A stretch of 64,000 nucleotides of DNA. Source: a phage. Position numbers and translations under genes: made by a program. The notes beneath the pieces are model-generated. The model saw nothing but the letters and a program-made list of their open reading frames with translations. It did no database searches and was not told the origin of the DNA. The stretch lies in the sequence record PZ534534.1; one strand, given 5' to 3'. This document shows positions 12,133-57,008 of the stretch, piece by piece (the stretch's first letter is position 1; each line of letters begins with the position of its first letter).

Positions 12133-13614
12133 TTACTTAGCGTACTCGATTAATTCCACAGTTTTCCCAAAGCTCGGGATATAATTTTTATTATACCCTT
12201 CGGTGAGAACCCATAAAGTATCGTACTTTTTCCACTTGTTGTCAACAGCCTTTTGTTCAAAGTTATGCTCAAAGTAGAGGTCGGTAAGGACGATGACATC
12301 TTTTGCATTCGGTATGTTAGCATCCAGATACTCGAACACGCAGGCGGCTGTTGTGCCCCATGTTGAGTGGACCTCATAGTTAATCATCTCATCGATGTTA
12401 CCGCGAGTGTATACTTTAACCTCTCCAACCTCCGTTGACCAACAGAACATAGTAACCTTAAACTCTTTATACAAATTGCACAACCCGGTGATCTCATTGA
12501 ACATTTTCTTTAAAGTTCTTTGTGAGATCGACCCAGAAACGTCTAAAGCCACTACAATATCTATAGTGTTTTCCGGATTACGACCAGGAACAATAACGTG
12601 TTGATTCTTGTTTATAGCTCCAACTTTTCGCATTGTGGTGGTCAAAGACCCAGATCGGCGACCAGGTTTTCTGTAGGTTAACTCAGCCTTTCTTTTAGAT
12701 AACATACGTTGCTTAATAATATCTATATAATTGATTACAGGCTTGCCTCTGTTTTTGACAAACTCGCGCACCGCCTCGGGGCAACGACCTCCTGAAGCTT
12801 GCATTGCTGCTTCCAACATGTCACCAGAGTCCTGCATGGCCTGATCTTTGTCAGATTGACTGATTACTGGTTGCGGCTGATCATACCCCATAGCCTTTCC
12901 AAGATCATCACTAGTGCCACCGTTCCCGCTCATGTGATCATCGGTTTGTCGTTTATCTCCTTGGGAGTTCTCACCTTTACCGTTCTTACTTTTACCGCCA
13001 TTCTGATCTCTTTGTTTATCAAGAACTGCATAGACGTTCTCAGCAATCCATCCATGAAACCTCATGTCGCAGTAGCAATTAGCTAAGAAGCCAAAAGGCT
13101 TACCTTTTACGAACTCAGTGCTTTTCCCCTTCGGGAAGAAAACACAAGGAGGCTTGCTAAAGTCAACCACAAGACCTGTGTTGATAACGTGATCACAAGC
13201 AATATTGAACAGTTCCGGCTCAAAGCTTTTACCACGGACCAGATGATCACAGATAATATGCCCCACCTCATGTGACAGAAGAAAGGCCACCTCTTTCACA
13301 GATTTTGGGGAATAGAAAACCTCAGCCATCTCAAACTGCTTGTCAGTCAGAGATGCTTTAAGAATGGTTTTACGCTCATCCGCCAACCCCATAATGAACT
13401 CAGGGCTGTAGTAGATGCGTTTATGGTCGGTTGCCATGGTGGAGCACCATGTGTGGTTTTCTACGAACTGCAACCCTGACAGTAGTGTGCCATAAAACGG
13501 CAGCTTTTCAAGGAGATACATACGTGCAGCCTGCAACATTCTCAGGGCATCATCTTTCTGCGAGGCAATGATTTCTGAACTTCTGCTATCCATTAAAACT
13601 CCAGAAGGGGCCAT
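12133..13614 (-). CDS. vWA-domain protein with N-terminal HExxH metallopeptidase-like domain
   Basis: HExxH motif LLSHEVGHIICDH in N-terminal half; vWA MIDAS motif VALDVSGSIS (DxSxS) in C-terminal half. Architecture resembles metallopeptidase-vWA partners of MoxR ATPases (established family knowledge). Confidence 0.65.
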   Translation of the reverse strand: MAPSGVLMDSRSSEIIASQKDDALRMLQAARMYLLEKLPFYGTLLSGLQFVENHTWCSTMATDHKRIYYSPEFIMGLADERKTILKASLTDKQFEMAEVFYSPKSVKEVAFLLSHEVGHIICDHLVRGKSFEPELFNIACDHVINTGLVVDFSKPPCVFFPKGKSTEFVKGKPFGFLANCYCDMRFHGWIAENVYAVLDKQRDQNGGKSKNGKGENSQGDKRQTDDHMSGNGGTSDDLGKAMGYDQPQPVISQSDKDQAMQDSGDMLEAAMQASGGRCPEAVREFVKNRGKPVINYIDIIKQRMLSKRKAELTYRKPGRRSGSLTTTMRKVGAINKNQHVIVPGRNPENTIDIVVALDVSGSISQRTLKKMFNEITGLCNLYKEFKVTMFCWSTEVGEVKVYTRGNIDEMINYEVHSTWGTTAACVFEYLDANIPNAKDVIVLTDLYFEHNFEQKAVDNKWKKYDTLWVLTEGYNKNYIPSFGKTVELIEYAK

Positions 13615-13626
13615 TGGCCCCTGTCA

Positions 13627-14670
13627 TTATTTAACGTGTTTGAAAATACCTGCCAACTCGGTCATTGTCATGCGGGTGGTCTTCATAAGATCTGTCATAG
13701 CTTTCTCCATAATTGGAGATACTACCATAAAGTTTCCTTTAGTGAAACCTTTATTCCAGTCGGTCACCAACAGGGGTTTAAGTCCAGCTCCAAGACGTTC
13801 ACCAGTTAAAGCACAGCATTTGCGAATATACGAACTCTTAAATTGGCTGAATGACAGATCAACTTTCATACCTACATCGTAGAACGTTTGACAATAGAAA
13901 GTGTAAGCTTTGGCAATCTCAACATCATCAGGTAGTGCAGGAACCTCTTCTGTAAGCTCCTCTTCGACCTCCTGAGTCTCTTTTTCCTCTTCATGCACCT
14001 GTTGCGTCATTTCTTCAATCTCTTCTGTGATAGGCTCGTTTACAATGTCGGAAATGTGCTTCTTGGGTGCACGATAAGTAACTTTAGACATCGGTAGCAT
14101 ATCTTCCTCCTCTTCTTCGTCAAAGAGTGCTAGTTTATCCTCTTCCGTTCCATATTGCAAGATGAAATCTTCAAAAGTATAATCACCTTTCAATTTCTCC
14201 ATACGCTCTTCGCTCAGGTGGAGCATCATCTGCTGGACAATTTTTCGATCAGTTTCGTCTTTAATCAAGACTGCAGTCTTTTTATCTACCAGACAGTCCT
14301 TTAGAGAGTTGCATCTCAATCCCACCACACAACAGTTATCAGCCGCATAAGGACCTTCATCATCTATCCGCTCCAGAGATGGGTAGAAAGGATTCCCCAG
14401 CCCGTTTTCATCTGTGTGCATGTCAAAAGGTATAAGGGTATAGTCGCATACTCCATCTCCTAAAAGTTTTTTACCAAATAGGAGGTATTCTTCCCATGAC
14501 AGGTCGAACTCTATATCTCGTTTCCGTGCGTTATTCTGTTTGCGTCTATATTTTTTGAGCAAGCGCTCTAACTCTTCTGGTGTATAATATTTTTCAAGAT
14601 TCATGAGTCGTCTCTCGTGCTCTGTAAGTGAAGAAATCGTATCAATTGTCTCAACAGATGTCAACATCAA
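13627..14670 (-). CDS. putative His-Me finger (HNH-like) endonuclease-domain protein with acidic C-terminal extension
   Basis: N-terminal region ...GDGVCDYTLIPF...SLERIDDEGPYAADNCCVVGLRCNSLKD resembles the DRID-type HNH pattern; Glu-rich middle; internal ATG preceded by GAGGAGG lies in a 29-bp inverted repeat shared with gene 15935..16291. Confidence 0.4.
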   Translation of the reverse strand: MMLTSVETIDTISSLTEHERRLMNLEKYYTPEELERLLKKYRRKQNNARKRDIEFDLSWEEYLLFGKKLLGDGVCDYTLIPFDMHTDENGLGNPFYPSLERIDDEGPYAADNCCVVGLRCNSLKDCLVDKKTAVLIKDETDRKIVQQMMLHLSEERMEKLKGDYTFEDFILQYGTEEDKLALFDEEEEEDMLPMSKVTYRAPKKHISDIVNEPITEEIEEMTQQVHEEEKETQEVEEELTEEVPALPDDVEIAKAYTFYCQTFYDVGMKVDLSFSQFKSSYIRKCCALTGERLGAGLKPLLVTDWNKGFTKGNFMVVSPIMEKAMTDLMKTTRMTMTELAGIFKHVK

Positions 14671-16975: not shown

Positions 16976-17245
16976 ATGTTATACCAGCAATATGAACTTC
17001 GTGCAGAAAAAGAGTTAAATTTTGACAAAGATATTCACAGATATTATTATGGGAAAGTTAGAGGGCAAGCAAGAAAGTGTACTCCAACACTCTTTTATGC
17101 CAGCAGACGACTAGCGCCAGAAGAGGCAACAGCAGAAAGGGTTGCGTACAACTGGAGAGTCACGTATGATATTGACAGATTCGATGTGATATCTGTTTTG
17201 GAAAACTTTGAAAACACTTACACACAAGTAGAGGACTTTTACTAA
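16976..17245 (+). CDS. hypothetical protein (89 aa)
   Basis: ORF; stop overlaps start of next gene. Confidence 0.5.
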   Translation: MLYQQYELRAEKELNFDKDIHRYYYGKVRGQARKCTPTLFYASRRLAPEEATAERVAYNWRVTYDIDRFDVISVLENFENTYTQVEDFY

Positions 17246-18429
17246 TGTCAAGAAACGTATTCGAAAGTGGTCAAATCACTGTCCGTGAGTTGCCAGCTAT
17301 TATTCAGTTTGCCCAACGTCATAGCCGATCTGTCCTAATTTTGGGACCAATGGGTGTGGGTAAAAGCCAGGTGATGAAGCAGATCGCTGATAATATGTTC
17401 GGTGAGCGAGATGACAACCTTGTTGACGTGCGACTGTCAGATAAAGATCCTGCCGACTTATCTGGGCTACCTATCCCTGTAGAAGCGGATGGAACTACAC
17501 GTACAGTGTTTGCAATTCCAGAATTTTGGCCTGCGGATCCTGACTGGAGCGGAATTATCTTTCTGGATGAGCTCACTCATGCAGATAACTACCTGCAAAA
17601 GGTTGCAATGCAAATTATGCTTGACCACAAGTGCGGCACCTATGCATTCCCTAAAGGTTCTGTTTTTGTGGCTGCGGGTAACCGTTCTACAGATGGTGCG
17701 GTTCTTTCGGCGCTCGAAGCCCCTCTGGCTAACCGTTTTATCATTGTAGAGGTTACAAGCAATGCAGAGGTGTTTATTGAGGACTACGCATTCCTCAACG
17801 GGGTTCACTCCTCTGTAATTGGGTATCTGAAAAGAGTTCCATCAGCTATTGATAATTATGAGGCTATGGCTGAGATTAATTGTCCATCTTTTGCCACACC
17901 ACGATCTTGGGTTGCTGCATCTGACATCTTGCACGATTTTGACAGCGGTATTATTTCTGACGCTATGGCCCGTGTTCTTCTACAAGGTGCTATTGGTCAC
18001 ACTGCAGCGGTAGAGATCTGGACTTACCACACCAAGAAACGTAATTTACCGGAAATCGGTCGGATTATGGCAGGTGGCTGCAAAGAATACGTAGGTCCTA
18101 AGCAGCCAGACATTTTGTGGATTCTTGGATCTGAAGGTTGTATCGCTATTCGCAATATGATGGAAAATGCAAGTATCTCAGACGAAGATCTTGTCAGCTG
18201 CGTGGCAAACTTCCTCGATTTCCTTTGGGAAAACTTCAAGGACGAGAACCGAGATTTTGTATTCTCAGTCTTTATGGCGATGATGAAACCTAATGCCTTA
18301 GGAAATGCCTTGCTTATCGGTAAAGGGCGTGACAAGATTGTTGCTCAGCTGATCAAAGCATACCCAAACCTGATGAAGATTGTAAAAGAGTTTGGTGAAG
18401 AGTTTAGCGCCATTTTGGCTAAAGCTTAA
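17245..18429 (+). CDS. MoxR-like AAA+ ATPase (AAA_5 type)
   Basis: Walker A LILGPMGVGKSQ and Walker B IIFLDELTHAD, then FVAAGNRSTDG arrangement typical of MoxR/CbbQ-type ATPases. Functional partner of vWA protein is inference. Confidence 0.65.
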   Translation: MSRNVFESGQITVRELPAIIQFAQRHSRSVLILGPMGVGKSQVMKQIADNMFGERDDNLVDVRLSDKDPADLSGLPIPVEADGTTRTVFAIPEFWPADPDWSGIIFLDELTHADNYLQKVAMQIMLDHKCGTYAFPKGSVFVAAGNRSTDGAVLSALEAPLANRFIIVEVTSNAEVFIEDYAFLNGVHSSVIGYLKRVPSAIDNYEAMAEINCPSFATPRSWVAASDILHDFDSGIISDAMARVLLQGAIGHTAAVEIWTYHTKKRNLPEIGRIMAGGCKEYVGPKQPDILWILGSEGCIAIRNMMENASISDEDLVSCVANFLDFLWENFKDENRDFVFSVFMAMMKPNALGNALLIGKGRDKIVAQLIKAYPNLMKIVKEFGEEFSAILAKA

Positions 18430-37345: not shown

Positions 37346-38571
37346 TGAGCGTTATTCAACAATTCGCTAACCCGATGAATCCGCGTGAAACTGTTTTACT
37401 GGCTCACGGCATGATTAAACGTGTCAGCATCAAGCCTATCAAAGGTGCTGATCCTACAACAGGTATTAAAACCACTGTGTGGCAAGGTAAGAAAATTGAA
37501 TCCAGCCACACCATCTCTTTACTGATTTCTGAACTGGATTCCTCTGATAACCTGCTTCAAGGTGGTGAAGAAGTTTGGATCAGCATGGGTGATAAGCTGC
37601 TTAAACCTGGTCATCAAGACTCTGTCTCTGTTAAAATTGATGACAAGTGGGAAACCGTAACGCCGGGATGGATCGTAAATATCCCTTTGAAGGCAAACGA
37701 GCATAACGGTAAGACCTATTACAAAGGCTCACTGGCTAAGATGGTCAAGCTGGGTGCAGGAGAGGCTCCAGCAGCGACTCAGCAGCAAAAACAGCAACAA
37801 GGTGCACAATCACAAGGCCAGAAGCAGAAACCTCAGCAGAATGCCAATCAGGACGTTTTACGCATCTATGGCGATGTGACTCAGATTGTTGGCAACGTGG
37901 TTACTGTTAATGACCACAAGATTGGCGAAGGTGCTATGGTTGTAACTGATGAGCAGCTTAAAGACCTGGTGGTAGGTGGTCGTGTTGCAGCCATTGTTGA
38001 CAAAGACACCGGAAACATTATCAGTGGTTTCAAAGCCTATCCCCCTAAGGCAGAGAACGGCACTCAAGGCTCTGGTGGCAAGCGTAAATCCTCTTACGAC
38101 CCTATTGGTGTGGAGACGGGACATAGCATCAACGCGTTGCAAATCATCCTGGATCGCGGGTTTAAGGTAGACGACCCACTAGGTGTGGCTAAAACACTGC
38201 ACGTAGTCACCATTGAGCTTAAGAAAGAGTATGCTCAAGCCACCAACCGAACCGAAGATGAAGTAGGTGCCAGTGTCGGTAATGCGGTGTTGAACGCTTG
38301 TCGCCGTATTGACAAGAAAACGAAAGTTGAGGATTTTGCAGCGGCAATTACTGCAGAAGCAAAAGATGTCTTGACTAATCTGGCTGAGCCGTTGTACGAT
38401 TGGATCAAGAACGGTGCTGGGTCCACTGACCATCAAGAACCTCAAGCTGCCAAGCAGGAAGCTGCTCCACAGCAAAACACTATAGACGCTCCTCCTGTAA
38501 ATGATGAGGAAGATGACCCGATGGATCAGAATCCGGCGCAGTATGAGTTCGATGACTCGATCCCTTTCTAA
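37345..38571 (+). CDS. putative ssDNA-binding protein with SSB-type acidic C-terminal tail
   Basis: Ends ...YEFDDSIPF, mimicking bacterial SSB C-terminal tip DDDIPF; Gln/Gly-rich linker QQQKQQQGAQSQGQKQKPQQ; location in replication module. OB fold not verified. Confidence 0.45.
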   Translation: MSVIQQFANPMNPRETVLLAHGMIKRVSIKPIKGADPTTGIKTTVWQGKKIESSHTISLLISELDSSDNLLQGGEEVWISMGDKLLKPGHQDSVSVKIDDKWETVTPGWIVNIPLKANEHNGKTYYKGSLAKMVKLGAGEAPAATQQQKQQQGAQSQGQKQKPQQNANQDVLRIYGDVTQIVGNVVTVNDHKIGEGAMVVTDEQLKDLVVGGRVAAIVDKDTGNIISGFKAYPPKAENGTQGSGGKRKSSYDPIGVETGHSINALQIILDRGFKVDDPLGVAKTLHVVTIELKKEYAQATNRTEDEVGASVGNAVLNACRRIDKKTKVEDFAAAITAEAKDVLTNLAEPLYDWIKNGAGSTDHQEPQAAKQEAAPQQNTIDAPPVNDEEDDPMDQNPAQYEFDDSIPF

Positions 38572-38579
38572 GGTCAGTT

Positions 38580-39158
38580 ATGAAATGCAAACGTTGTGGG
38601 GAGGACAAGGAGGCCTCCGACTTCTATACCAGCAACAAATCAACGTGCAAAGAGTGCTGTAAGAAGGCCAGCAGGGAGGCTGACCAATTTGCTAAAGACT
38701 CTTCAGAAAAAGGTGTAATACGTGTGTTGTACAAGACTCAAAAGTGCAACAGCAAGCAAAGAGGTCACCCTCCTCCGACTTACACCAAAAAAGAGTTTAA
38801 GGAGTGGCTATACCTGAACGGTTACAAAGAGTTGTATGATCAGTGGGTAGCCAGCGGATACGACAAAAGGAAAAAGCCTTCTTGTGACAGGATAGATGAT
38901 TTCAAAGGGTACTCTTTTGATAATATCCGTTTAACGACCTGGGGAGAAAATAAAGACAAGCAGACAGAGGATATTTTGTTACATAGAAGCACCAGCGGTA
39001 GACGGTGCAAAAATGTAAGGAGGTTGGACATGAATGGCAACGTTCTTAAAGAGTGGGTATCCCACAACTCTTGCAGCAGAGAAACCGGAATATATGTTGG
39101 TTACTACATTCATGAAAAAATTCCAGCTCCCGATGGATACCTCTATGAATACTTCTAA
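38580..39158 (+). CDS. putative endonuclease-like protein with N-terminal zinc ribbon
   Basis: N-terminal CxxC...CxxC (CKRCGED...CKECCKK); CDRIDDFKGYSFDNIRL resembles DRID-type His-Me finger motif. Weak. Confidence 0.35.
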   Translation: MKCKRCGEDKEASDFYTSNKSTCKECCKKASREADQFAKDSSEKGVIRVLYKTQKCNSKQRGHPPPTYTKKEFKEWLYLNGYKELYDQWVASGYDKRKKPSCDRIDDFKGYSFDNIRLTTWGENKDKQTEDILLHRSTSGRRCKNVRRLDMNGNVLKEWVSHNSCSRETGIYVGYYIHEKIPAPDGYLYEYF

Positions 39159-39173
39159 CATCTAGTTAACATA

Positions 39174-39203
39174 GCCCTGCCCGAAATGGTGGGGCATTTT
39201 TGT
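39174..39203 (+). terminator. rho-independent terminator (near-identical to 26878 copy)
   Basis: GCCCTGCCCGAAATGGTGGGGC hairpin followed by ATTTTTG. Confidence 0.55.
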
Positions 39204-39220
39204 ATAAGGAGATCTGAAAA

Positions 39221-39637
39221 ATGACATTAGAAGATATCATTGTTAAACCTGAGAACTATGACCAATACAACCTGTCAACTCAATCTGTAGACCTTGGATG
39301 CGCCACAGTCAGTGCATGGCTGGTTAACGGAAAAGAGCTGGATAAATGCTTAGAAGCTCACATGTCTATTAACAAGTTTCTGGATGAAAATACTCACTGG
39401 CTTGAAGGTGCAGGCGTATATGCTTCATGGTTGGAGAGTATGGGATTCGACTACCAATCTGAAGAGGGGTGGTGGAGCTATTTAGCTATCTGCCCAGAGA
39501 CGCTGCAATGCTTCATGAAATATTCTGAAGATTTGGAGTACCGGGCGGTGGTTGATAGTGCTATTGCCCGTTATAGCCGTAAACCTTTTTCCCACGACAT
39601 TAAAACTGTGGAAGAATTTGTTGAAGTTTTCTGTTGA
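39221..39637 (+). CDS. hypothetical protein (138 aa)
   Basis: ORF with AAGGAG RBS. Confidence 0.55.
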   Translation: MTLEDIIVKPENYDQYNLSTQSVDLGCATVSAWLVNGKELDKCLEAHMSINKFLDENTHWLEGAGVYASWLESMGFDYQSEEGWWSYLAICPETLQCFMKYSEDLEYRAVVDSAIARYSRKPFSHDIKTVEEFVEVFC

Positions 39638-39733
39638 CACAAGTTGAAAGGTGTGTAATTATAACTTCATAGAACGGGAGGACGTGATGAACGAAGAAAA
39701 CTGGGATGTATAACTAACAGGAGGCCACTGCCC

Positions 39734-39931
39734 ATGATTTATCGAATCCGTGTAAGAGAAGATGCACCAGGCTGTTACTTTGACTGGCGTGGGTGGTGGT
39801 TTCTCCACCCGATGGATGGACTCACAGATAGAATGCTGGATGCTGCCCTTTATACAGATACCGACATAGAATATAATCTCTATCTGAAGGACGGTATAGA
39901 TAACGGTCTATTTGAAGCAATTCCTGTGTAA
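39734..39931 (+). CDS. hypothetical protein (65 aa)
   Basis: ORF with AGGAGG RBS. Confidence 0.5.
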   Translation: MIYRIRVREDAPGCYFDWRGWWFLHPMDGLTDRMLDAALYTDTDIEYNLYLKDGIDNGLFEAIPV

Positions 39932-39999
39932 GAGACTGTGATAGCCATGTTTTATGATCTTCCTGTAGCACCACCACCTGTTGAACCCGGAGAACTAAG

Positions 40000-40425
40000 A
40001 TGATCTATGAAATGCCAAAACTGATTCGTGACGATGCCCAAAACGCTCACACCATTATTATGGGCAAACGCATGGATATTATTTGTCATAAAGATTTCTG
40101 GGAAGGAAGTTACTTCACAGAGTATTTTGGTAAACTGGACAATGGTCTGCTGATCCAGTTCTACACCGATGCGGAAAACAACATTCCCTGGGAGTTCGAA
40201 ACTGAAGATGTCCATAAACTTTTCACCTTCCTCGGTATTAAGGTTAAGGCCAAGTTTGAAGAAGGTGAGTGCGACGATTGTGGATTTTATGAGGTAACAG
40301 ATTTCTACCTTCCTAGCGGTAAGAACCTTTACTATGAAAGCCACTTCGGTAACTCCAATATGCCACAGTGCTGGACTGAGTTTTTTGAAATTGCGGAAGA
40401 GGAGCTGGCTTACCGTGATTATTGA
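40000..40425 (+). CDS. hypothetical protein (141 aa)
   Basis: ORF in array. Confidence 0.5.
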   Translation: MIYEMPKLIRDDAQNAHTIIMGKRMDIICHKDFWEGSYFTEYFGKLDNGLLIQFYTDAENNIPWEFETEDVHKLFTFLGIKVKAKFEEGECDDCGFYEVTDFYLPSGKNLYYESHFGNSNMPQCWTEFFEIAEEELAYRDY

Positions 40426-40873
40426 TACTGTAGAGGGAGATTTAATCTCCCTTTTTAAGAGTGGTGCTGGTCACCTGATCCACGGTTGTAACTGCTTCCA
40501 CACAATGGGCAAGGGTATAGCAAAACAGATTGCCCGTGAGTTTCCTCAAGCACTGTCAGCCGACAAAGAGACTAGATACGGTTGCCTAAGTAAACTGGGT
40601 GCGTTCTCCCGATGGGAGCACTTATCTCCGATAGGTATTGTCTACGGAATCAATCTATATACCCAGTTCTACCCAGGACCTAATGCTGAGTATTTCTCAA
40701 TCCTGAAAGGCTTTGAGCTAGTCAATGAAGTATTCAGCGGATCGACTTTACCATTCTACATCCCTAAGATCGGGTGCGGCATAGGCGGTTTGAAGTTGGA
40801 ACACGTAGAGGACGTTATTAACCTTGCCACTTTCGACATAGATATTGTCGTGGTGGAGTACAAAAAGTGTTGA
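40415..40873 (+). CDS. macro-domain-like protein (putative ADP-ribose binding/processing)
   Basis: GTG start after GAGGAG; N-terminal VEGDLISLFKSGAGHLIHGCNCFHTMGKGIAKQIAREFP resembles macro-domain core. Not HMM-verified. Confidence 0.45.
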   Translation: MIIDTVEGDLISLFKSGAGHLIHGCNCFHTMGKGIAKQIAREFPQALSADKETRYGCLSKLGAFSRWEHLSPIGIVYGINLYTQFYPGPNAEYFSILKGFELVNEVFSGSTLPFYIPKIGCGIGGLKLEHVEDVINLATFDIDIVVVEYKKC

Positions 40874-40927
40874 CGACCATCTTCTGAGGTGATATAGTTT
40901 CCACGACAACTAAGAGAGGAGAGCACT

Positions 40928-41098
40928 GTGGAGACTAAAATCTTAATTCTTGCTGTGGTAGATACAACCGAAGGAGCTATATTCGAATCTGCAGGAGGGT
41001 ATTTCTACCTACCATACGGAAAAAGAACTTCCGAGCCAAGTAAAGATTCAATCCTCAAAGTGTTCCCGTGTGCTTTCTGGCTGGAGATTTTGGTATAA
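40928..41098 (+). CDS. small hypothetical protein (56 aa), absent from ORF track
   Basis: GTG start after GAGGAG RBS; translated by hand. Confidence 0.25.
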   Translation: METKILILAVVDTTEGAIFESAGGYFYLPYGKRTSEPSKDSILKVFPCAFWLEILV

Positions 41099-41124
41099 GA
41101 TTGCAGAGGATTTGGGAGAGAATT

Positions 41125-41319
41125 ATGAGAAACAAGAAAGAACTTTACTCCGGTGAGTGGATCAACGATCAACAGGTGGGAGAGGTAACCTGCTTCCGAT
41201 GTTTTACCAGGTACAATCTTAAAACTGCACCAAAAAGTGTTCCAAAGACTGACGGTTACTACATAAAAGAACCTCATTGCCCAAAATGTAAATGCCGATT
41301 GTACTGGAGCAATCTGTAA
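41125..41319 (+). CDS. small zinc-ribbon protein (64 aa)
   Basis: ATG after GGGAGAG; CFRCF...CPKCKC four-Cys pattern. Confidence 0.5.
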   Translation: MRNKKELYSGEWINDQQVGEVTCFRCFTRYNLKTAPKSVPKTDGYYIKEPHCPKCKCRLYWSNL

Positions 41320-41323
41320 GAGG

Positions 41324-41352
41324 TTGACATCTGAAAACTGCAGTGTATAATA
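41324..41352 (+). promoter_or_regulatory. consensus sigma70 promoter (TTGACA-17-TATAAT)
   Basis: Perfect hexamers read directly upstream of 41383 gene. Confidence 0.65.
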
Positions 41353-41382
41353 TACGCATAAACTAACAGAGGGTGATGTATT

Positions 41383-41574
41383 ATGGTAATTTTTAACCGG
41401 GATGGTATCATAGTTAGACAGCACCCGTTCCTTGAATACTATCAAATTGAGCAATGGTGCTACGGGGATTGCAGTCACTCCTATGGGCAAAGTTGGGGAT
41501 ATCGTGCAGTTTTTGAATCCACAGACCTTGACAAAGTAAGACAGAAAGTTTTAGAACTTATTAACAACAAGTGA
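41383..41574 (+). CDS. hypothetical protein (63 aa)
   Basis: ORF downstream of consensus promoter, GAGGG RBS. Confidence 0.5.
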   Translation: MVIFNRDGIIVRQHPFLEYYQIEQWCYGDCSHSYGQSWGYRAVFESTDLDKVRQKVLELINNK

Positions 41575-41584
41575 GTATCGTGCC

Positions 41585-41917
41585 ATGGTAACATTGGAAA
41601 GACGTAAAGCTATCGCCGCCACACTGGCAGACATCTTTTGGGATTGCAACTTAAAAGATACCCGAAATTGTGGCGCATCTGTAGATGTATTATTCCCACG
41701 GCCTACTATTGTTGCAATGGGCAACCTGCTCGATGTGGTATATGGAGCATGGGACAAGGAAGGTGGATTCTATATCTGGCAACCTGACTACGGGACTTGG
41801 AAAGAGGTTAGTGGTTCTTCGGACTTCACTCCTGCAGTGGCTAAAATGGATGGCTGGAAAATCTATGTCGGTAACGACATGGAACTGAAAGGCGAAATTG
41901 TTTACTGGTTACCTTAA
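41585..41917 (+). CDS. hypothetical protein (110 aa)
   Basis: ORF in array. Confidence 0.5.
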   Translation: MVTLERRKAIAATLADIFWDCNLKDTRNCGASVDVLFPRPTIVAMGNLLDVVYGAWDKEGGFYIWQPDYGTWKEVSGSSDFTPAVAKMDGWKIYVGNDMELKGEIVYWLP

Positions 41918-41938
41918 GAAAGTCCAGGAGATAAAGTT

Positions 41939-42184
41939 ATGAACAAAGGGTGGACATTTGTAGACGGCGTTAAAAACATGCCTCTAGGAAAGTATATTGT
42001 AGCCATGGCAGATGAGAATGGCAAGGTTGATTTCGGAGTTTGCGAGGTTGTTCTTGCAGGATCTGGTGACTATGCTCACAAAACTGGGATAATTAACGGT
42101 CATTTCTACTTTGATTACAACCCTGTTGTGGCGTATATGGCTATGCCAGAGTTCGAGCTCCCAAAGGAAGGTGCAGATGTTTAA
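41939..42184 (+). CDS. hypothetical protein (81 aa)
   Basis: AGGAGA RBS. Confidence 0.5.
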   Translation: MNKGWTFVDGVKNMPLGKYIVAMADENGKVDFGVCEVVLAGSGDYAHKTGIINGHFYFDYNPVVAYMAMPEFELPKEGADV

Positions 42185-42374
42185 GCTTAAATCTGCATGG
42201 AACATCGCTGTGGGGGACGAGATCCGTATCCCAGGTGGAAAGACCATTATGAAAATATCTCGTATCGAGTACGAAGGTGATCGTGTATTTCATATCTTTG
42301 CAGAAGATGGTCGAGAAATTTATATACAGGCAGGCTCTCACATCTATATTCGTAAGAAAGGGGAGGACAAATGA
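42177..42374 (+). CDS. hypothetical protein (65 aa)
   Basis: ATG after AAGGAAGG overlapping upstream stop (track start 42111 in same frame). Confidence 0.45.
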   Translation: MFKLKSAWNIAVGDEIRIPGGKTIMKISRIEYEGDRVFHIFAEDGREIYIQAGSHIYIRKKGEDK

Positions 42375-42700
42375 CAGAGATCATCATTTCAACTGCAGGG
42401 TATGTATTCCTGACAATCATTGCGCTGGCTATTCTGGTGGCGGTGTATGGATTTGTTATCCTTCCTATTCTTGAGACATTTAGTTTGTGTCGGTGTTGGA
42501 GAAAAGCTTACGGTCCACAACCATGGAAGGACTGGCCCCACCTGGTGCGCTTAGCGTTCTCTTATGCTTACGATCACTCCAGTAGTGCATGCATAACCGG
42601 ATACCACGCCCACAACTGGAGCTGGGAAGGGTTGAGGAAATGGAATGTTACAAAGACCATACCTCTGCGCATGTACAAACCTAAAAACAAAGACAACTGA
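42371..42700 (+). CDS. membrane protein (109 aa)
   Basis: N-terminal hydrophobic segment IIISTAGYVFLTIIALAILVAVYGFVILPIL; GGGGAGG RBS. Confidence 0.5.
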   Translation: MTEIIISTAGYVFLTIIALAILVAVYGFVILPILETFSLCRCWRKAYGPQPWKDWPHLVRLAFSYAYDHSSSACITGYHAHNWSWEGLRKWNVTKTIPLRMYKPKNKDN

Positions 42701-53699: not shown

Positions 53700-56098
53700 C
53701 TCTTCTCCTACCATAAACGGCCCTACCTGGCAAGTGGAATAATTGACTAGCTATTAATCCCACACACTGTACAAATATACATGGAAAATAACTATTGCAT
53801 AATTTTTCATTGTGTGGTAGCAAGGCCATTTTTGCCCGTTTTCTCTCCCAAAATTGCACGTAATGCCGCTATTGCATAAATTTTAACCTGATGCATATCT
53901 TCAATATCTTGTCAACAAATAAAAATTCTTATAAGTCATACACTTACACAACATCGAAAGCGTGTCCTATGCGAAAAATCGAGTATAACTATAGCCGCCA
54001 GATTTCAGAATTTACGTACGCTCACCATTCTATAGCTTGCTAAGTATTTATTCCAACCATAGAATAACGGAATAGTCAATACCTGCATAAAATAATTATT
54101 CGTTTAAATTGCATAACATAAATCAGCTCAGGTGTCAACATTTTTCGTAAACAGTCCGAAATTGTCACGGCAAGTTATCATAAGCAGAGAAATCTTTAGT
54201 CGTCTAATGTTTACTGTACGTTACTATACTAACTGGAATCATTAGATGACTAACAGAAAGATAAGAAATAATTAATAATGTAATTGTTTTACCTGTAACA
54301 ATAAGGCAACTATGCAAACGAATGGCATGGCGCGACGGAGTCGCGACATAATATAAAAGCAGTAACCATCACCCCCGTGATAGTTTGTCTGCAAACTATT
54401 AATCAGATCATAGTTGCCTTGTATTTAGTTAATCATGACATAACAAGCAAGGCAACTATAGATCTGCTAATAGTTGCCCTGCTTTTATATTATGTCATAT
54501 ATTATTAACTTGTTAATTGTTAACTTGCTAATTGTTTTCATGCAAACGAATGTCATGGCTTATCATATCTGTGTAAACTGTCAAGGTGTAAACAGTCTAT
54601 GCGGGAACAATCTATACGTGAACAGTGAAACATGAAATAATAACAGTCGTTATTGTGCCATATTGTGTCCGGTGTGTCAGACAAGTTTTTCTCCTCTTTG
54701 TCAAGTGCTGCATGAAAAATTTACAAACTGGTATGGTAGCATTTTTGCGGCCCTGTTTACATTCAGCGATGTATGTATAATCCTTGTTGTGTGGGCGTTT
54801 AGACGTCTAGACGGTTGGAAGTCTGCAGGTCAATATCTAATCTATTGGCTGCTAACTATATCCCACACAAATAGTAAGAAATATGATTGTTATATGCGTA
54901 AACTGTAACTCATGTTATCAATCCCTGTATGTATCGCCAGTGGTGCGCATAATGGGTATTATGTTAAATTGCCCGTAATGATAACTATTCTCACAATGAT
55001 AGGTATTCTCATTCACCCCCACAAGATAGGTTGCAAATGTTGTGCCACTGTGTGAACGGCCTCACCTATTAATTTGCCTCACTGCCTCGATATTTGAGAA
55101 TTATTATAAGAATGAGAAGTATTCCCATTTCGTCCGCCTGGCAGCACTCCAGTCGCTACCGCTCATGACAGGGCAGAACTAGACCCTCTTCAGATATTTC
55201 TGGCTGACTCTTCAGGTCTGTGTGGGAAAAGCCAACCTCTCCGGCGGGGAAGGGGAGGTCAATTAAAAAATTTACGTGGTGTATGAAGCGCTCTTCAGGT
55301 AAGGCATGTGTTATGGGATGAAACCCTCTTCAGGCAATGATATTTGTGGGTGTGATATTTGCTGGAAAGCCAGATATGACGGGACTCCCGGCGGGGCAGG
55401 GGTAGTACAGACAAGGAAAATGTGGGGATGTGGTGGGAGTAAATTGATCAGACAGGTAGAGTATGGAATATGTTACAGGTATGTTAAATAGGGAGGCTGA
55501 ATATCTGTAAGATTTGTGTGTAAAATCAAAGACTTAAGTGGTGTTGTGGTATTTTCTATAAATAATTCAAGTTTAATAGGTAATATTTGTCTCTATCCGC
55601 CTTGTGTGGTAAACAGATTCAGATGAGATTGGTTTACAAGTGTATACATAATATACAAATTAAAGATACAAGAAACCCCCCTCCCCCTTCGGCTACCATT
55701 CACCTTTTCCTCTGACTGGTACTTAAACACTTATTCAGACTCTTCAGGTTATCACCCATATATCATATGGCAGTGACTGGTGTCCTCCGGCCACTCTTTC
55801 GTCACCCGTCCGCTTCGCCATGCTAATGCCATAGCCAATGGTTCGGTTGTTCACCCTGTTCACTCAGGTGTATCTCCATACCCCTTCAAACCGAAGAGAA
55901 CAGAAAACCCGAATTACTCGGTAAAAGAAAAGAGAAGAACTTAATTTTATCAGGATAGGCAAGAATGTCAAGGCATGACTGCTCACTAAACAAGCAAACA
56001 GTCATGTGTGGGAGGTAAGTGATTGTGGTGGTAGGAAATTTAGTTGAAAGATGTGTTATAGGTGCTTCCAGCACTTTAGCCGGGCAGCTAATTGTGTG
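53700..56098. other. 2.4-kb gene-free strand-switch region with nested palindromes and iterated motifs (candidate replication origin / regulatory hub)
   Basis: No convincing ORF on either strand; inverted repeats, direct repeats and six CTCTTCAGG copies read directly. Confidence 0.5.
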
Positions 56099-56395
56099 TC
56101 AGTCCAGCGGTTCATCCTCTACTTCACTGAAATCAATATTCATGGTCTCTTCCCAACCATCGATCTCAGCACAAGAGTGGAGTTCTTTAGGGTTTACTCC
56201 CAAAGCCTCAGCAACAGAGTCTATATTTAACACCTCTGGCAGGTATGATTCATCGAATTCAAGGTAAATCAGGCCACGAGTGTTGTCAGCCCCACCAAAT
56301 ATTTCTATCTTCATAAAATCTCCTCTGGGAATGAGAGTGTGAACAGGGTTTTATACGTTCCAATGCACAAGAATTATACACGTTTGCCTCTTCAG
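55186..56395 (+). repeat. six dispersed copies of CTCTTCAGG-type motif, all in same orientation
   Basis: Copies at about 55186, 55208, 55291, 55326, 55740, 56387, read directly. Confidence 0.5.
56099..56314 (-). CDS. small acidic protein (71 aa)
   Basis: GAGGAG RBS 6 nt upstream on minus strand. Confidence 0.5.
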   Translation of the reverse strand: MKIEIFGGADNTRGLIYLEFDESYLPEVLNIDSVAEALGVNPKELHSCAEIDGWEETMNIDFSEVEDEPLD

Positions 56396-56435
56396 GCCAT
56401 GCTTTAGCATGAGGAACCTGTGTGGGCTCGGTGCT

Positions 56436-56648
56436 TCATAGTCTACCACCTCTGAACTCTTCGTGCTCAGGCATAATAGAGAACCAGATATCTACGATGT
56501 CCTCCCACGTCAGGTCATCAGCCTCAGGATCTGTCTGGGACGAAGATGAAGAGTCCTCAGAATCTAAGTTTTCCTCTTTAACTGGCTCATCCAAGGGACA
56601 TATGGTCACTCCTTCGGATGTCTCTTCAGATGCATGTGTGTTGATCAT
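56436..56648 (-). CDS. small acidic Ser/Glu/Asp-rich protein (70 aa)
   Basis: ORF with GGGTGGA RBS. Confidence 0.45.
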   Translation of the reverse strand: MINTHASEETSEGVTICPLDEPVKEENLDSEDSSSSSQTDPEADDLTWEDIVDIWFSIMPEHEEFRGGRL

Positions 56649-57008
56649 GTTCCACCCGTGAGTATTCCGGCAACAGCCGCTATGGACGTAATGATCATCA
56701 GGATCACCACTAAAACTTCGGACAATGTTCTCATTGTGTACTCCATATTCTACAAACTATGTGTGGATACTATCACTGGATCGGTAATGTGTCAACAGAA
56801 ACGCCGCGAGGGTTTGGTTAAAATCCGAGCGTATGGTGATTTGGGTCAAAACGGACGTGCGTTCTCGCTACGCTCGAAAGAGAGATTTGTTTGTAGGAAG
56901 CTCTTAAACGCTCTGTAACGAGATTATCTGTCCAAGGTATGCAATCGTGCACCAGATAAAGAAAAGGACGCCACAGAGCGTCCTAGGTGTCTTAAATTTG
57001 ATATTTTG

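What the first reader, a model, noticed from the sequence alone, without database searches (positions are those of the whole stretch)
40415..40873. Macro-domain-like protein in the early/replication region
The N-terminal HGCNCFHTMGKGIAKQI segment resembles the ADP-ribose-binding core of macro domains. Macro domains reverse ADP-ribosylation or bind ADP-ribose derivatives, so a phage copy could counter NAD-dependent or ADP-ribosylating host defences, or regulate phage ADP-ribosyltransferase activity. The motif match is from memory and short.
Basis: inference. Interest (0 to 1): 0.5.

Follow-up and report, generated by a model that had tools for sequence, protein, structure and literature searches.

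The report
Phage macrodomain enzyme, T4 Tk.4/AdfM homologue
This small gene of an rV5-like E. coli phage really does encode a macro-domain (ADP-ribose-processing) enzyme, but it belongs to an already annotated phage family whose T4 member (Tk.4/AdfM) was recently shown to protect the phage from the DNA-ADP-ribosylating DarTG2 defence, so it is a sound but ordinary finding.

Summary

It is 69% identical to RB49 Tk.4 and 39% to T4 Tk.4. A 2025 preprint showed that deleting T4 tk.4 sensitises T4 to DarTG2 and named it AdfM.

The family keeps Asn26 but has an invariant Gln84 where DarG and TARG1 have the catalytic Lys. SCO6735, a proven thymidine-ADP-ribose DNA hydrolase, has the same Asn/Gln pair.

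Best reading (about 0.55): an early, dispensable orphan 'antitoxin' that removes DarT2 ADP-ribose from phage ssDNA.

Main rival: an ADPR-1''-phosphate phosphatase like phage Adpp. Adpp-context homologues share the active site, but this phage has no NARP1 partner genes.

No direct test exists for any rV5-like phage. Novelty is low.

The parts
40415..40873 (+). Macro-domain protein gene (152 aa), homologue of T4 Tk.4/AdfM, in PHROG 335.
40481..40522 (+). Codons 23-36, H-G-C-N-C-F-H-T-M-G-K-G-I-A: the first ADP-ribose-binding loop. It contains His23 and Asn26 (which aligns with DarG N22 and SCO6735 N27) and the GxG phosphate-binding turn.
   Evidence: G24, N26, G34 and A36 are invariant in 62 homologues, and H23, C27 and M31 are at least 90% conserved. 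The loop aligns with the same loop of DarG, SCO6735, BT1257, TARG1 and Poa1p.
40652..40666 (+). Codons 80-84, N-L-Y-T-Q. The invariant Gln84 occupies the position of the catalytic Lys of TARG1 (K84) and DarG (K80), and aligns with Gln85 of SCO6735.
   Evidence: N80 and Q84 are invariant, and Y82 and T83 are at least 90% conserved. HMMER alignments to 5m3i (..PTKK..), 4j5r (..ITKK..), 5e3b and 2afc (..NMIGQ..) are. The SCO6735 Q85A and N27S mutants are inactive on ADPr-dT DNA (PMC9411070).
40763..40792 (+). Codons 117-126, P-K-I-G-C-G-I-G-G-L: the second, glycine-rich ADP-ribose diphosphate-binding loop. The position of the TARG1 catalytic Asp125 is Gly here.
   Evidence: P117, G120 and G125 are invariant, and I119 and G122 are at least 90% conserved.
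40399..40425 (+). Translation-initiation context: a GAGGAG run, a 10-nt spacer, a GTG start, and an 11-nt overlap with the stop of the upstream 141-aa ORF (40000-40425). Translational coupling is likely.
   Evidence: Read directly from the sequence. The same overlapping arrangement is annotated in I29, rV5_ev168, Bas54 and Bas57.
39634..39877 (+). Two sigma70-like promoter matches (39634-39662 and 39849-39877) upstream of the three-gene run that ends with the macro gene. These are candidate early promoters only.
   Evidence: Consensus scan: each matches 10 of 12 positions. The region holds 16 sites against 9.6 +/- 3.1 in shuffles. This is not evidence of function.

Best explanation
The gene encodes a stand-alone, catalytically competent macrodomain of the TARG1/DarG/Poa1p ('ALC1-like') class. 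It is the Vequintavirus counterpart of T4 Tk.4 (AdfM).

Proposed mechanism. The gene is probably transcribed by host RNA polymerase with the other small early genes and is dispensable in defence-free hosts. The enzyme binds the ADP-ribose moiety through its two glycine-rich loops (residues 23-36 and 117-126). It hydrolyses the C1''-N glycosidic bond of ADP-ribose that the host toxin DarT2 attaches to thymidines in single-stranded phage DNA. This restores replicable and transcribable DNA, so the protein acts as an orphan antitoxin against DarTG2 abortive infection.

Chemistry. It should not use the Lys nucleophile of TARG1 and DarG. Asn26 would hold the invariant Gln84 against the distal ribose while a positioned water does the chemistry, as proposed for SCO6735.

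What is shown here: the gene, the fold, the family, conservation of the binding loops and the Asn/Gln pair, the absence of partner genes, and dispensability of the Bas54 orthologue.

What is shown by others for homologues only: the anti-DarTG2 phenotype (T4 Tk.4) and ADPr-dT-DNA hydrolysis by a Gln-type macrodomain (SCO6735).

What is inferred: that this protein has the same substrate and role.

For: The only defence-system model matched in PADLOC is DarG, over its macro part only (39.7 bits; T4 Tk.4 gives 36). The NCBIfam best hit is antitoxin_DarG, profile positions 3-141.

Orthology. The protein is 69% identical over its full length to RB49 Tk.4, which sits in the same vs-tk.4-...-tk position as T4 tk.4. 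It is 38.6% identical (E 1e-38) to T4 Tk.4, against 44% for RB49 versus T4. It groups with RB49 Tk.4 at 92-100% bootstrap.

Genetics in the family. Deleting T4 tk.4 specifically sensitises T4 to DarTG2, and tk.4 was the single significant hit of a genome-wide screen (bioRxiv 10.1101/2025.11.20.689424).

Active site. T4 Tk.4 and this protein share H23/N26/N80/Q84. SCO6735 has the same Asn27/Gln85 pair, hydrolyses DarT-made ADPr-thymidine DNA, protects from DarT, and is inactivated by Q85A or N27S (PMC9411070).

Accessory character. The Bas54 orthologue bas54_0092 tolerates insertions at 31 of 31 TA sites. One natural rV5-like genome carries a 498-bp deletion that destroys the gene. Both fit a conditionally useful counter-defence gene.

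The gene is an orphan: no DarT, ART, NADAR, sirtuin or NARP gene is present in the window.
Against: No rV5-like phage or protein has been tested against DarTG2, and no literature links Vequintavirinae to DarTG2.

The T4 evidence is a preprint. It is genetic only, and no biochemistry on any Tk.4-type protein was found.

Identity to T4 Tk.4 is only 39%, and the tree node joining the rV5/RB49 clade to T4 Tk.4 has 37% bootstrap.

Homologues with the same catalytic residues sit inside NARP1 operons (Thalassavirus, Pakpunavirus). One of that group is a proven ADPR-1''P phosphatase, so the active-site signature does not discriminate between substrates.

The catalytic Lys that defines DarG and PhiKZ AdfM is absent. 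The loop after Gln84 lacks the Lys residues that help SCO6735 bind DNA, and the protein is mildly acidic at pI 5.9. That last point is weak, because the biochemically validated PhiKZ AdfM has pI 5.05.

In the one Bas54 clinical-isolate comparison retrieved from the HIDEN-SEQ supplement, bas54_0092 was not conditionally essential (log2FC +0.42, q = 1). The other Bas54 comparisons were not examined, and that strain's defence content is unknown to me.
Confidence: 0.55

Rival explanations
1. ADPR-1''-phosphate phosphatase (Adpp/Poa1p-like). The enzyme removes the 1''-phosphate from ADPR-1''P made by RES-domain NADases (aRES defence, RES toxins) or by RNA-repair side reactions. It would either detoxify that metabolite or feed ADP-ribose to NAD+ salvage.
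For: The protein is in the same PHROG (335) as the NARP1-associated macro proteins. It is 34% identical to them and shares the same H/N/N/Q residues. Bennett gp178 lies between the PRPS-like Adps and the Namat gene, and Henu5 gp73 lies next to Namat. Bennett is a Thalassavirus like phage Gary, whose Adpp converts ADPR-1P to ADPR in vitro and is required to beat aRES. Poa1p is among the top sequence and fold matches, and its His23 and Ser30 align with His23 and Thr30 here. Several GenBank records already call the gene 'phosphatase' or 'Poa1p-like'.
Against: The published benefit of Adpp depends on Adps and Namat. Neither is present in the window or in the complete genome of the close relative rV5_ev168: tblastn gives no hit at E<=1 with a working positive control, and there is no annotation and no Pfam hit. 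The NARP1-context proteins form a separate cluster with a slightly different signature (NxYGQ and GCGLAGG, against NLYTQ and GCGIGG here). The nearest tested relative by sequence is T4 Tk.4 (118 bits against 64-75 bits for the NARP1-context proteins), and its phenotype is anti-DarTG2.
Confidence: 0.17
2. A house-keeping ADP-ribose metabolite hydrolase serving the phage's own NAD-consuming enzymes. For example, it could deacetylate O-acetyl-ADP-ribose, or clear ADPr by-products made by the SIR2-family protein that rV5-like phages encode next to a polynucleotide kinase/phosphoesterase/ligase (RNA-repair-like) cluster.
For: rV5_ev168 encodes a SIR2-family protein at 67742-68503, beside a PNK/3'-phosphatase, a phosphoesterase and a ligase. 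TARG1-class macrodomains hydrolyse O-acetyl-ADP-ribose: PDB 4j5r is named O-acetyl-ADP-ribose deacetylase 1. Iyer et al. argue that phage macro domains mostly act on soluble ADPr derivatives and that most viral sirtuins belong to RNA repair (PMC9503650).
Against: The sirtuin cluster is about 50 kb away and outside this window, and it is not co-located with the macro gene. T4 and RB49 have the macro gene without a reported sirtuin. No co-variation was tested. The T4 phenotype is defence-specific, and T4 tk.4 is dispensable on K-12 (45 of 46 TA sites disrupted).
Confidence: 0.08
3. An eraser of ADP-ribose on proteins or RNA. It would reverse host or phage ADP-ribosyltransferase marks, either as a counter to other ART-based defences or as a regulator of a phage ART.
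For: TARG1 and SCO6735 both also de-ADP-ribosylate proteins. The macro fold is generic for such erasers.
Against: No ART domain is detectable among 108 ORFs of the window, and none is annotated in rV5_ev168. The TARG1 Lys84/Asp125 dyad used for Glu/Asp-linked protein ADPr is absent, replaced by Gln84 and Gly. No phenotype of this kind is known for any family member.
Confidence: 0.08
4. A non-catalytic ADP-ribose binder or sponge, or a direct DarT-binding inhibitor, rather than a hydrolase.
For: The canonical catalytic Lys and Asp are missing. Catalytically dead SCO6735 still inhibits DarT by interaction (PMC9411070). ICP1 AdfB works by binding DarT (PMC11481870).
Against: Asn26 and Gln84 are invariant across 62 diverse homologues, as expected for catalysis; in SCO6735 the same two residues are essential for hydrolysis. 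A family member, Adpp, is a proven enzyme. The C-terminal DarT-binding domain of DarG is absent: the protein is 152 aa and matches only positions 3-142 of the DarG models.
Confidence: 0.05

Closest known systems
T4 Tk.4 = AdfM (anti-DarT factor, macrodomain), with its RB49/Krischvirus orthologue
   Same: It is a stand-alone macrodomain of about 150 aa in the same PHROG (335). It is 38.6% identical to T4 Tk.4 and 69% to RB49 Tk.4 over the full length. The HGCNCFHTMG, NLYTQ(F/Y)xPGPN and P(K/R)IG(C/A)GIG motifs are the same. It is a small dispensable gene overlapping its upstream neighbour in an early-type gene array.
   Different: The genomic neighbourhood differs. T4 and RB49 have vs upstream and tk downstream. 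Here unrelated small ORFs flank the gene, and only the downstream Zn-ribbon ORF is shared with RB49. The anti-DarTG2 phenotype is shown only for T4.
SCO6735 (Streptomyces coelicolor) and BT1257 (PDB 5e3b, 2afc, 2fg1): Gln-type ALC1-like macrodomains
   Different: Identity is only 22-26%. These are cellular proteins, not phage proteins. SCO6735 has a longer, Lys-containing mobile loop after the Gln that aids DNA binding, and here that loop is 'FYPGPNAEY'. SCO6735 is basic (pI 9.7) against pI 5.9 here.
DarG2 antitoxin macrodomain (Mtb and T. aquaticus DarG, PDB 5m3i, 5m31, 5m3e) and PhiKZ gp104 AdfM
   Different: The catalytic Lys (DarG K80, PhiKZ K78) is Gln here. There is no C-terminal DarT-binding domain. 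The protein scores 39 bits against the 250-bit NCBIfam cut-off. PhiKZ gp104 is 37% identical to Mtb DarG but only 20% to this protein, and it scores 133 bits on the PADLOC DarG model against 40 here.
Adpp (NARP1-AP ADPR-1''P phosphatase, Vibrio phage Gary) and yeast Poa1p
   Different: No Adps or Namat partner genes are present. The NARP1-context proteins form a separate sequence cluster. Poa1p has Ser, not Gln, at position 84, plus a 20-residue insertion.
Human TARG1/OARD1
   Same: It is the top Foldseek match (E 1.7e-9, TM 0.78). The size is the same (152 aa), and the two ADPr-binding loops are shared.
   Different: The Lys84/Asp125 catalytic dyad is absent (Gln84 and Gly). Identity is about 25%.

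Membership tests
Macro domain superfamily (Pfam PF01661) | Profile match at or above the curated gathering score. | tested here: met
   25.5 bits against a cut-off of 22, E 1.4e-5. Most homologues carry precomputed PF01661.
Macro domain superfamily (Pfam PF01661) | Three-layer alpha/beta/alpha macro fold with a mixed six-stranded sheet. | tested here: met
Macro domain superfamily (Pfam PF01661) | Conserved ADP-ribose-binding loops (N-x6-G-x-G-[IV]-A and a second Gly-rich loop). | tested here: met
   N26, G32, G34, I35, A36 and P117, G120, G122, G125 are present and invariant or nearly invariant in 62 homologues. ADP-ribose binding itself was not measured.
TARG1/OARD1-type terminal ADP-ribose protein glycohydrolase | Catalytic Lys84/Asp125 dyad. 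| tested here: not met
   The Lys position is the invariant Gln84, and the Asp125 position is Gly.
DarG2 antitoxin (NCBIfam NF048014, PADLOC DarG) | Full-length equivalog score, with an N-terminal macrodomain plus a C-terminal DarT-binding domain, encoded next to darT. | tested here: not met
   39.4 bits against a cut-off of 250, with only profile positions 3-141 of 338 matched. PADLOC DarG positions 4-142 of 329 are matched. The protein is 152 aa. No DarT or other ART is in the window.
DarG2 antitoxin (NCBIfam NF048014, PADLOC DarG) | Catalytic Lys80 and Asn22. | tested here: not met
   Asn is kept (N26), but Lys80 is replaced by Gln84 (residue roles from PMC5179494).
SCO6735/BT1257 Gln-type macrodomain hydrolases | Gln at the K80/K84 position, held by the first-loop Asn, with no acid/base residue nearby. 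| tested here: met
SCO6735/BT1257 Gln-type macrodomain hydrolases | Hydrolysis of thymidine-linked ADP-ribose on ssDNA. | not testable with these tools
   This needs an in-vitro assay with a DarT2-modified oligonucleotide.
Phage Tk.4/AdfM (T4-type) family | Full-length homology to T4 Tk.4 with the family signature motifs. | tested here: met
   38.6% identity, E 1e-38 and 118 bits to T4 Tk.4; 69% to RB49 Tk.4. Both hit PHROG 335, at E 9e-58 here and 1e-65 for T4. The motifs are shared. The bootstrap for the node joining the rV5/RB49 clade to T4 is only 37%.
Phage Tk.4/AdfM (T4-type) family | Required for phage growth on DarTG2-expressing hosts. | not testable with these tools
   Shown only for T4. 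No data exist for Vequintavirinae.
Adpp of the NARP1-AP pathway | Encoded in or next to an Adps (PRPS-like) plus Namat (NAMPT-like) operon. | tested here: not met
   tblastn finds no Adps or Namat homologue at E<=1 in the window or in the whole rV5_ev168 genome, and the positive control works. There are no such Pfam domains and no such annotation.
Adpp of the NARP1-AP pathway | ADPR-1''-phosphate phosphatase activity. | not testable with these tools
   This needs LC-MS with purified ADPR-1P. Active-site residues are shared with the NARP1-context homologues, so the activity cannot be excluded.

The most novel reading that the evidence does not exclude
T4-type AdfM (anti-DarTG2) and Adpp (ADPR-1''P phosphatase against RES NADases) may not be two enzyme families. 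They may be one Gln-type phage macrodomain with one active site (His23/Asn26/Asn80/Gln84) that cleaves whatever leaving group sits on C1'' of ADP-ribose, whether thymine in DNA or phosphate. On that reading this single 152-aa early protein would blunt two unrelated NAD+-based defences, and genomic context (NARP1 present or absent) would decide which benefit is selected. In the papers I searched and read, I found none that links the two activities or notes that T4 Tk.4 lacks the DarG catalytic lysine.
Probability: 0.3. Interest if true: 0.55.

Novelty: already known. Interest (0 to 1): 0.25.

Why it matters
The gene is a routine, correctly recognised macro-domain gene. Near-identical copies are already labelled as such in GenBank, and its family has a published (preprint) counter-defence role. 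It matters in three practical ways.

- It predicts that rV5-like therapeutic phages are intrinsically resistant to DarTG2-type defence. It also predicts that natural deletion variants, like the one in Logan run ERR11560567, are not.
- The rV5/T4 proteins carry Gln where DarG has its catalytic Lys. The 'DarG-like' mechanism assumed for T4 AdfM therefore probably follows the SCO6735 route instead.
- The same active site occurs in the NARP1-associated phosphatase Adpp. This raises the testable possibility of dual specificity.

Tried and rejected
- **NARP1 partners.** The two large minus-strand ORFs at 12133-14670 looked like Namat and Adps by size. They turned out to be a DUF2201 metallopeptidase/VWA protein and an ORF with no Pfam hit. 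A whole-genome tblastn was also negative.
- **Synteny with T4.** The upstream 141-aa ORF is not a Vs homologue, and no flanking ORF matches T4 neighbours. Only the downstream Zn-ribbon ORF matches RB49 ORF090c.
- **Charge and pI as a DNA versus small-molecule discriminator.** This was uninformative, because the validated DNA enzyme PhiKZ AdfM is acidic too.
- **Phylogeny to assign AdfM versus Adpp.** Shallow clades are solid, but deep nodes have under 40% bootstrap, so the tree only weakly favours the Tk.4 side.
- **Active-site residues as a discriminator.** Rejected, because the AdfM-type and Adpp-context proteins share them.
- **First literature search for 'Tk.4'.** It failed on a term-length error, and a second search was swamped by 'macrophage' papers.
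- **ICP1 AdfB.** I considered it as a macrodomain mimic. The paper describes a DarT-binding antitoxin mimic rather than a macro hydrolase, so I did not use it as a homologue.
- **Model geometry.** I could not measure the Asn26-Gln84 distance in the model because coordinates are not exposed to the script machine.
- **ATG at 40334 as the start.** Rejected, because it overlaps the upstream gene by 92 nt and no homologue carries that extension.

Full report
**1. What is at the coordinates**

Window 40415-40873 (+) is a 459-nt ORF encoding 152 aa.

The mechanical ORF list starts it at an ATG at 40334, but the real start is the GTG at 40415. That GTG follows a GAGGAG run by 10 nt and overlaps the stop codon of the upstream 141-aa ORF (40000-40425). 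Every homologue begins at the equivalent MII(D/K)TV. The identical 459-nt CDS is annotated in phages I29 (I29_188, 'macro domain protein'), rV5_ev168, Bas57 and Bas54.

The window is an rV5-like myophage (Vequintavirus). The stretch 39000-42500 is 90-99% identical to 120 phage records.

**2. It is a macro domain**

- Pfam Macro (PF01661) scores 25.5 bits, above the curated cut-off of 22.
- PHROG 335 ('phosphatase') matches at E 9e-58.
- A profile of 62 homologues hits solved macrodomains at E 3e-16 to 1e-14.
- An AlphaFold2 model built on that alignment has pLDDT 95.5 and pTM 0.90.
- Foldseek puts TARG1, Poa1p and DarG macrodomains on top, with TM 0.75-0.78.

The protein therefore belongs to the TARG1/DarG/Poa1p ('ALC1-like') class. 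GenBank records of near-identical genes already say 'macro domain protein', 'phosphatase', 'Poa1p-like family protein', or 'T4-like protein with Macro domain, T4 GC 1557'.

**3. Family and orthology**

tblastn finds homologues in 2,731 of 50,697 phage records.

| Comparison | Identity | Source |
|---|---|---|
| This protein vs RB49 Tk.4 | 69% | |
| This protein vs T4-like Tk.4 | 39-44% (T4 itself 38.6%, E 1e-38) | |
| This protein vs Cba120 | 43% | |
| This protein vs Felix O1 | 33% | |
| This protein vs Thalassavirus and Pakpunavirus homologues | 34% | |
| RB49 Tk.4 vs T4 Tk.4 | 44% | |

RB49 tk.4 occupies the same vs-tk.4-...-tk slot as T4 tk.4. The rV5-like protein is therefore about as far from T4 Tk.4 as a bona fide positional orthologue is.

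In a neighbour-joining tree the rV5 clade joins RB49 Tk.4 with 92-100% bootstrap. Deeper nodes, including the link to T4 Tk.4 (37%), are weak.

The macro gene and the 64-aa zinc-ribbon ORF at 41125-41319 are shared with RB49 (tk.4 plus ORF090c) at 69-74% DNA identity. This indicates exchange of a small module between Krischvirus and Vequintavirus lineages.

**4. What is known about the family**

(a) A genome-wide transposon screen of T4 found tk.4 as the single gene needed on a DarTG2-expressing host. A clean knock-out became DarTG2-sensitive, and the gene was named adfM (bioRxiv 10.1101/2025.11.20.689424). T4 tk.4 is otherwise non-essential, with 45 of 46 TA sites hit.

(b) An independent 'AdfM', PhiKZ gp104, removes DarT2 ADP-ribose from DNA in vitro (PMC13309987). 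It is a different, Lys-type, DarG-like protein. It is 37% identical to Mtb DarG and 20% to the window protein, and it scores 133 bits on the PADLOC DarG model against 40 here.

(c) In Vibrio phage Gary (Thalassavirus) a macro protein between Adps and Namat, named Adpp, dephosphorylates ADPR-1''P. This lets NARP1 rebuild NAD+ despite the RES-domain defence aRES (bioRxiv 10.64898/2026.01.28.702374). The congeneric Bennett gp178 sits between the PRPS-like and phosphoribosyltransferase genes and is 34% identical to the window protein. Pakpunavirus Henu5 gp73 is in a similar context.

All of these proteins fall in PHROG 335.

**5. Active site**

Across 62 homologues G24, N26, G34, A36, N80, Q84, P117, G120 and G125 are invariant. 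H23, C27, M31, Y82, T83, I119 and G122 are at least 90% conserved. These residues map to the two ADP-ribose-binding loops and the strand-end motif NLYTQ.

HMMER and MAFFT alignments place Gln84 at the position of the catalytic Lys of TARG1 (K84) and DarG (K80). The TARG1 Asp125 position is Gly.

The same Asn/Gln arrangement ('H.CN' and 'NMIGQ') occurs in SCO6735 and BT1257. SCO6735 hydrolyses DarT-made ADP-ribosyl-thymidine DNA and protects Streptomyces from DarT. It is inactivated by Q85A and by N27S, which led its authors to propose a water-mediated mechanism in which Gln positions the distal ribose (PMC9411070).

T4 Tk.4 has the same residues, and so do the NARP1-context proteins. Two conclusions follow. 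T4-type AdfM proteins are mechanistically SCO6735-like rather than DarG-like. The catalytic signature alone cannot tell an AdfM from an Adpp.

I verified my recalled reference sequences. Poa1p is 100% identical to 6lfq. TARG1 numbering reproduces K84 and D125, and Poa1p numbering reproduces H23, S30 and F152.

**6. Context**

The gene is an orphan. Among 108 ORFs of 60 aa or more in the window, no ART, NADAR, sirtuin, Nudix, PRPS or phosphoribosyltransferase domain is found. The size-suggestive ORFs at 12133-14670 are a DUF2201/VWA protein and an ORF with no Pfam match.

tblastn with Adps-like and Namat-like proteins finds nothing in the window or in the complete rV5_ev168 genome, while the positive control works. 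rV5-like genomes do carry a SIR2-family gene beside a PNK/phosphoesterase/ligase cluster, but it is about 50 kb away and outside the window.

The macro gene lies about 7.4 kb downstream of the DNA polymerase on the same strand, in a long array of small ORFs with sigma70-like promoters. This fits early expression, but timing was not measured.

**7. Dispensability**

The Bas54 orthologue (bas54_0092; the locus is 94.7% identical at DNA level) tolerates transposon insertions at 31 of 31 TA sites on E. coli K-12. In the one clinical-isolate comparison I retrieved it was not depleted.

One natural rV5-like genome (Logan ERR11560567_708, 135.5 kb) has a 498-bp deletion (window 40165-40662) between two 'QFY'-coding repeats. 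The deletion fuses the upstream ORF to the C-terminal 67 residues of the macro protein and removes both the first binding loop and Asn80.

Both observations fit a conditionally useful accessory gene.

**8. Interpretation**

The best-supported reading (about 0.55) is an orphan-antitoxin-type ADP-ribosylglycohydrolase that strips DarT2 ADP-ribose from thymidines in phage ssDNA. Three facts support it:

- The closest experimentally probed relative by sequence is T4 Tk.4.
- The only defence-system profile it matches is DarG.
- The Asn/Gln active site is proven for exactly this reaction in SCO6735.

The main rival (about 0.17) is ADPR-1''P phosphatase activity as in Adpp and Poa1p. It cannot be excluded biochemically. 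It lacks its published rationale here, because NARP1 is absent.

Minor rivals are clearing of sirtuin or RNA-repair ADPr by-products, protein or RNA de-ADP-ribosylation, and non-catalytic binding. The two leading activities may coexist in one enzyme (the novel case, about 0.3).

**9. Verdict**

The gene is a member of an already annotated and recently characterised phage family, so novelty is low.

The one point beyond the literature I read is that T4-type AdfM and Adpp share a Gln-type, lysine-less active site with SCO6735. This is a mechanistic nuance worth a bench test rather than a discovery.

No experiment exists for any rV5-like phage, so the assignment to DarTG2 remains an inference.

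Noticed in passing
window 38572-39152 (ORF 38580-39158, +): This endonuclease gene is annotated 'endonuclease VII' or 'putative homing endonuclease' in relatives. It is present in this phage and some relatives but cleanly absent from others. Matches from naswa, magaca and APECc02 begin at query position 154, and Logan contig L016 jumps from 38571 to 39153. That pattern fits a mobile homing-endonuclease insertion. It had no Pfam hit at E<=0.01. The Bas54 copy is non-essential.
   Followed up: partly
window 41125-41319 (+): This 64-aa CxxC...CxxC zinc-ribbon ORF (PF23903 in the orthologue) is 78% identical to RB49 ORF090c, the gene immediately after RB49 tk.4. DNA identity is 69-74% across the macro gene and the zinc-ribbon ORF. 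This suggests a two-gene module exchanged between Krischvirus and Vequintavirus. Homologues occur in 300 phage records. Whether it works with the macro protein is unknown.
   Followed up: partly
window 40165-40662, compared with L016 1501-1866: A natural 498-bp deletion in an rV5-like metagenomic genome (Logan ERR11560567_708) lies between two short 'QFY'-coding repeats. It creates a 121-aa fusion of the upstream ORF's N-terminus with the macro C-terminus, which is a likely loss-of-function allele.
   Followed up: yes
window ~53900-57000, especially 54296-54496: This stretch of about 3 kb has no convincing ORF and lies close to the switch from the plus-strand to the minus-strand gene block. 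It probably corresponds to the ~2-kb insertion-free intergenic region reported for Bas54. It has no Rfam match. It holds a cluster of ATAGTTGCC-type direct and inverted repeats, including a perfect 18-nt inverted repeat at 54345-54362/54479-54496. It is a candidate origin or regulatory region.
   Followed up: partly
window 41324-41351 (+): A perfect sigma70 consensus promoter match, TTGACA-16 nt-TATAAT (12 of 12), lies just after the zinc-ribbon ORF. Another good match with an extended -10 TG is at 40870-40898, right after the macro stop codon.
   Followed up: no
window 17245-18429 (+) and 12133-13614 (-): The window holds a MoxR-type AAA ATPase (only weak Pfam AAA hits; 'MoxR ATPase' in rV5_ev168) and a DUF2201 metallopeptidase plus VWA-like protein. 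The Bas54 MoxR gene (bas54_0063) was reported as an anti-defence gene against a predicted system, DS-28. Orthology to this ORF was assumed from annotation and not checked.
   Followed up: no
window, ORFs not individually located: Pfam hits among window ORFs include a ribosome hibernation factor (Ribosomal_S30AE, E 4e-13), a T7 gp1.1-like protein (Phage_1_1), an HNH_3 + AP2 endonuclease, a PIF1-like helicase and an N6/N4 DNA methylase. The phage-encoded S30AE homologue is unusual enough to deserve a look.
   Followed up: no
search result: Sixteen records named 'Campylobacter phage' (host C. jejuni) are at least 90% identical to this E. coli rV5-like locus, and several carry a 100%-identical zinc-ribbon ORF. 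These records are probably mislabelled or contaminant genomes.
   Followed up: no
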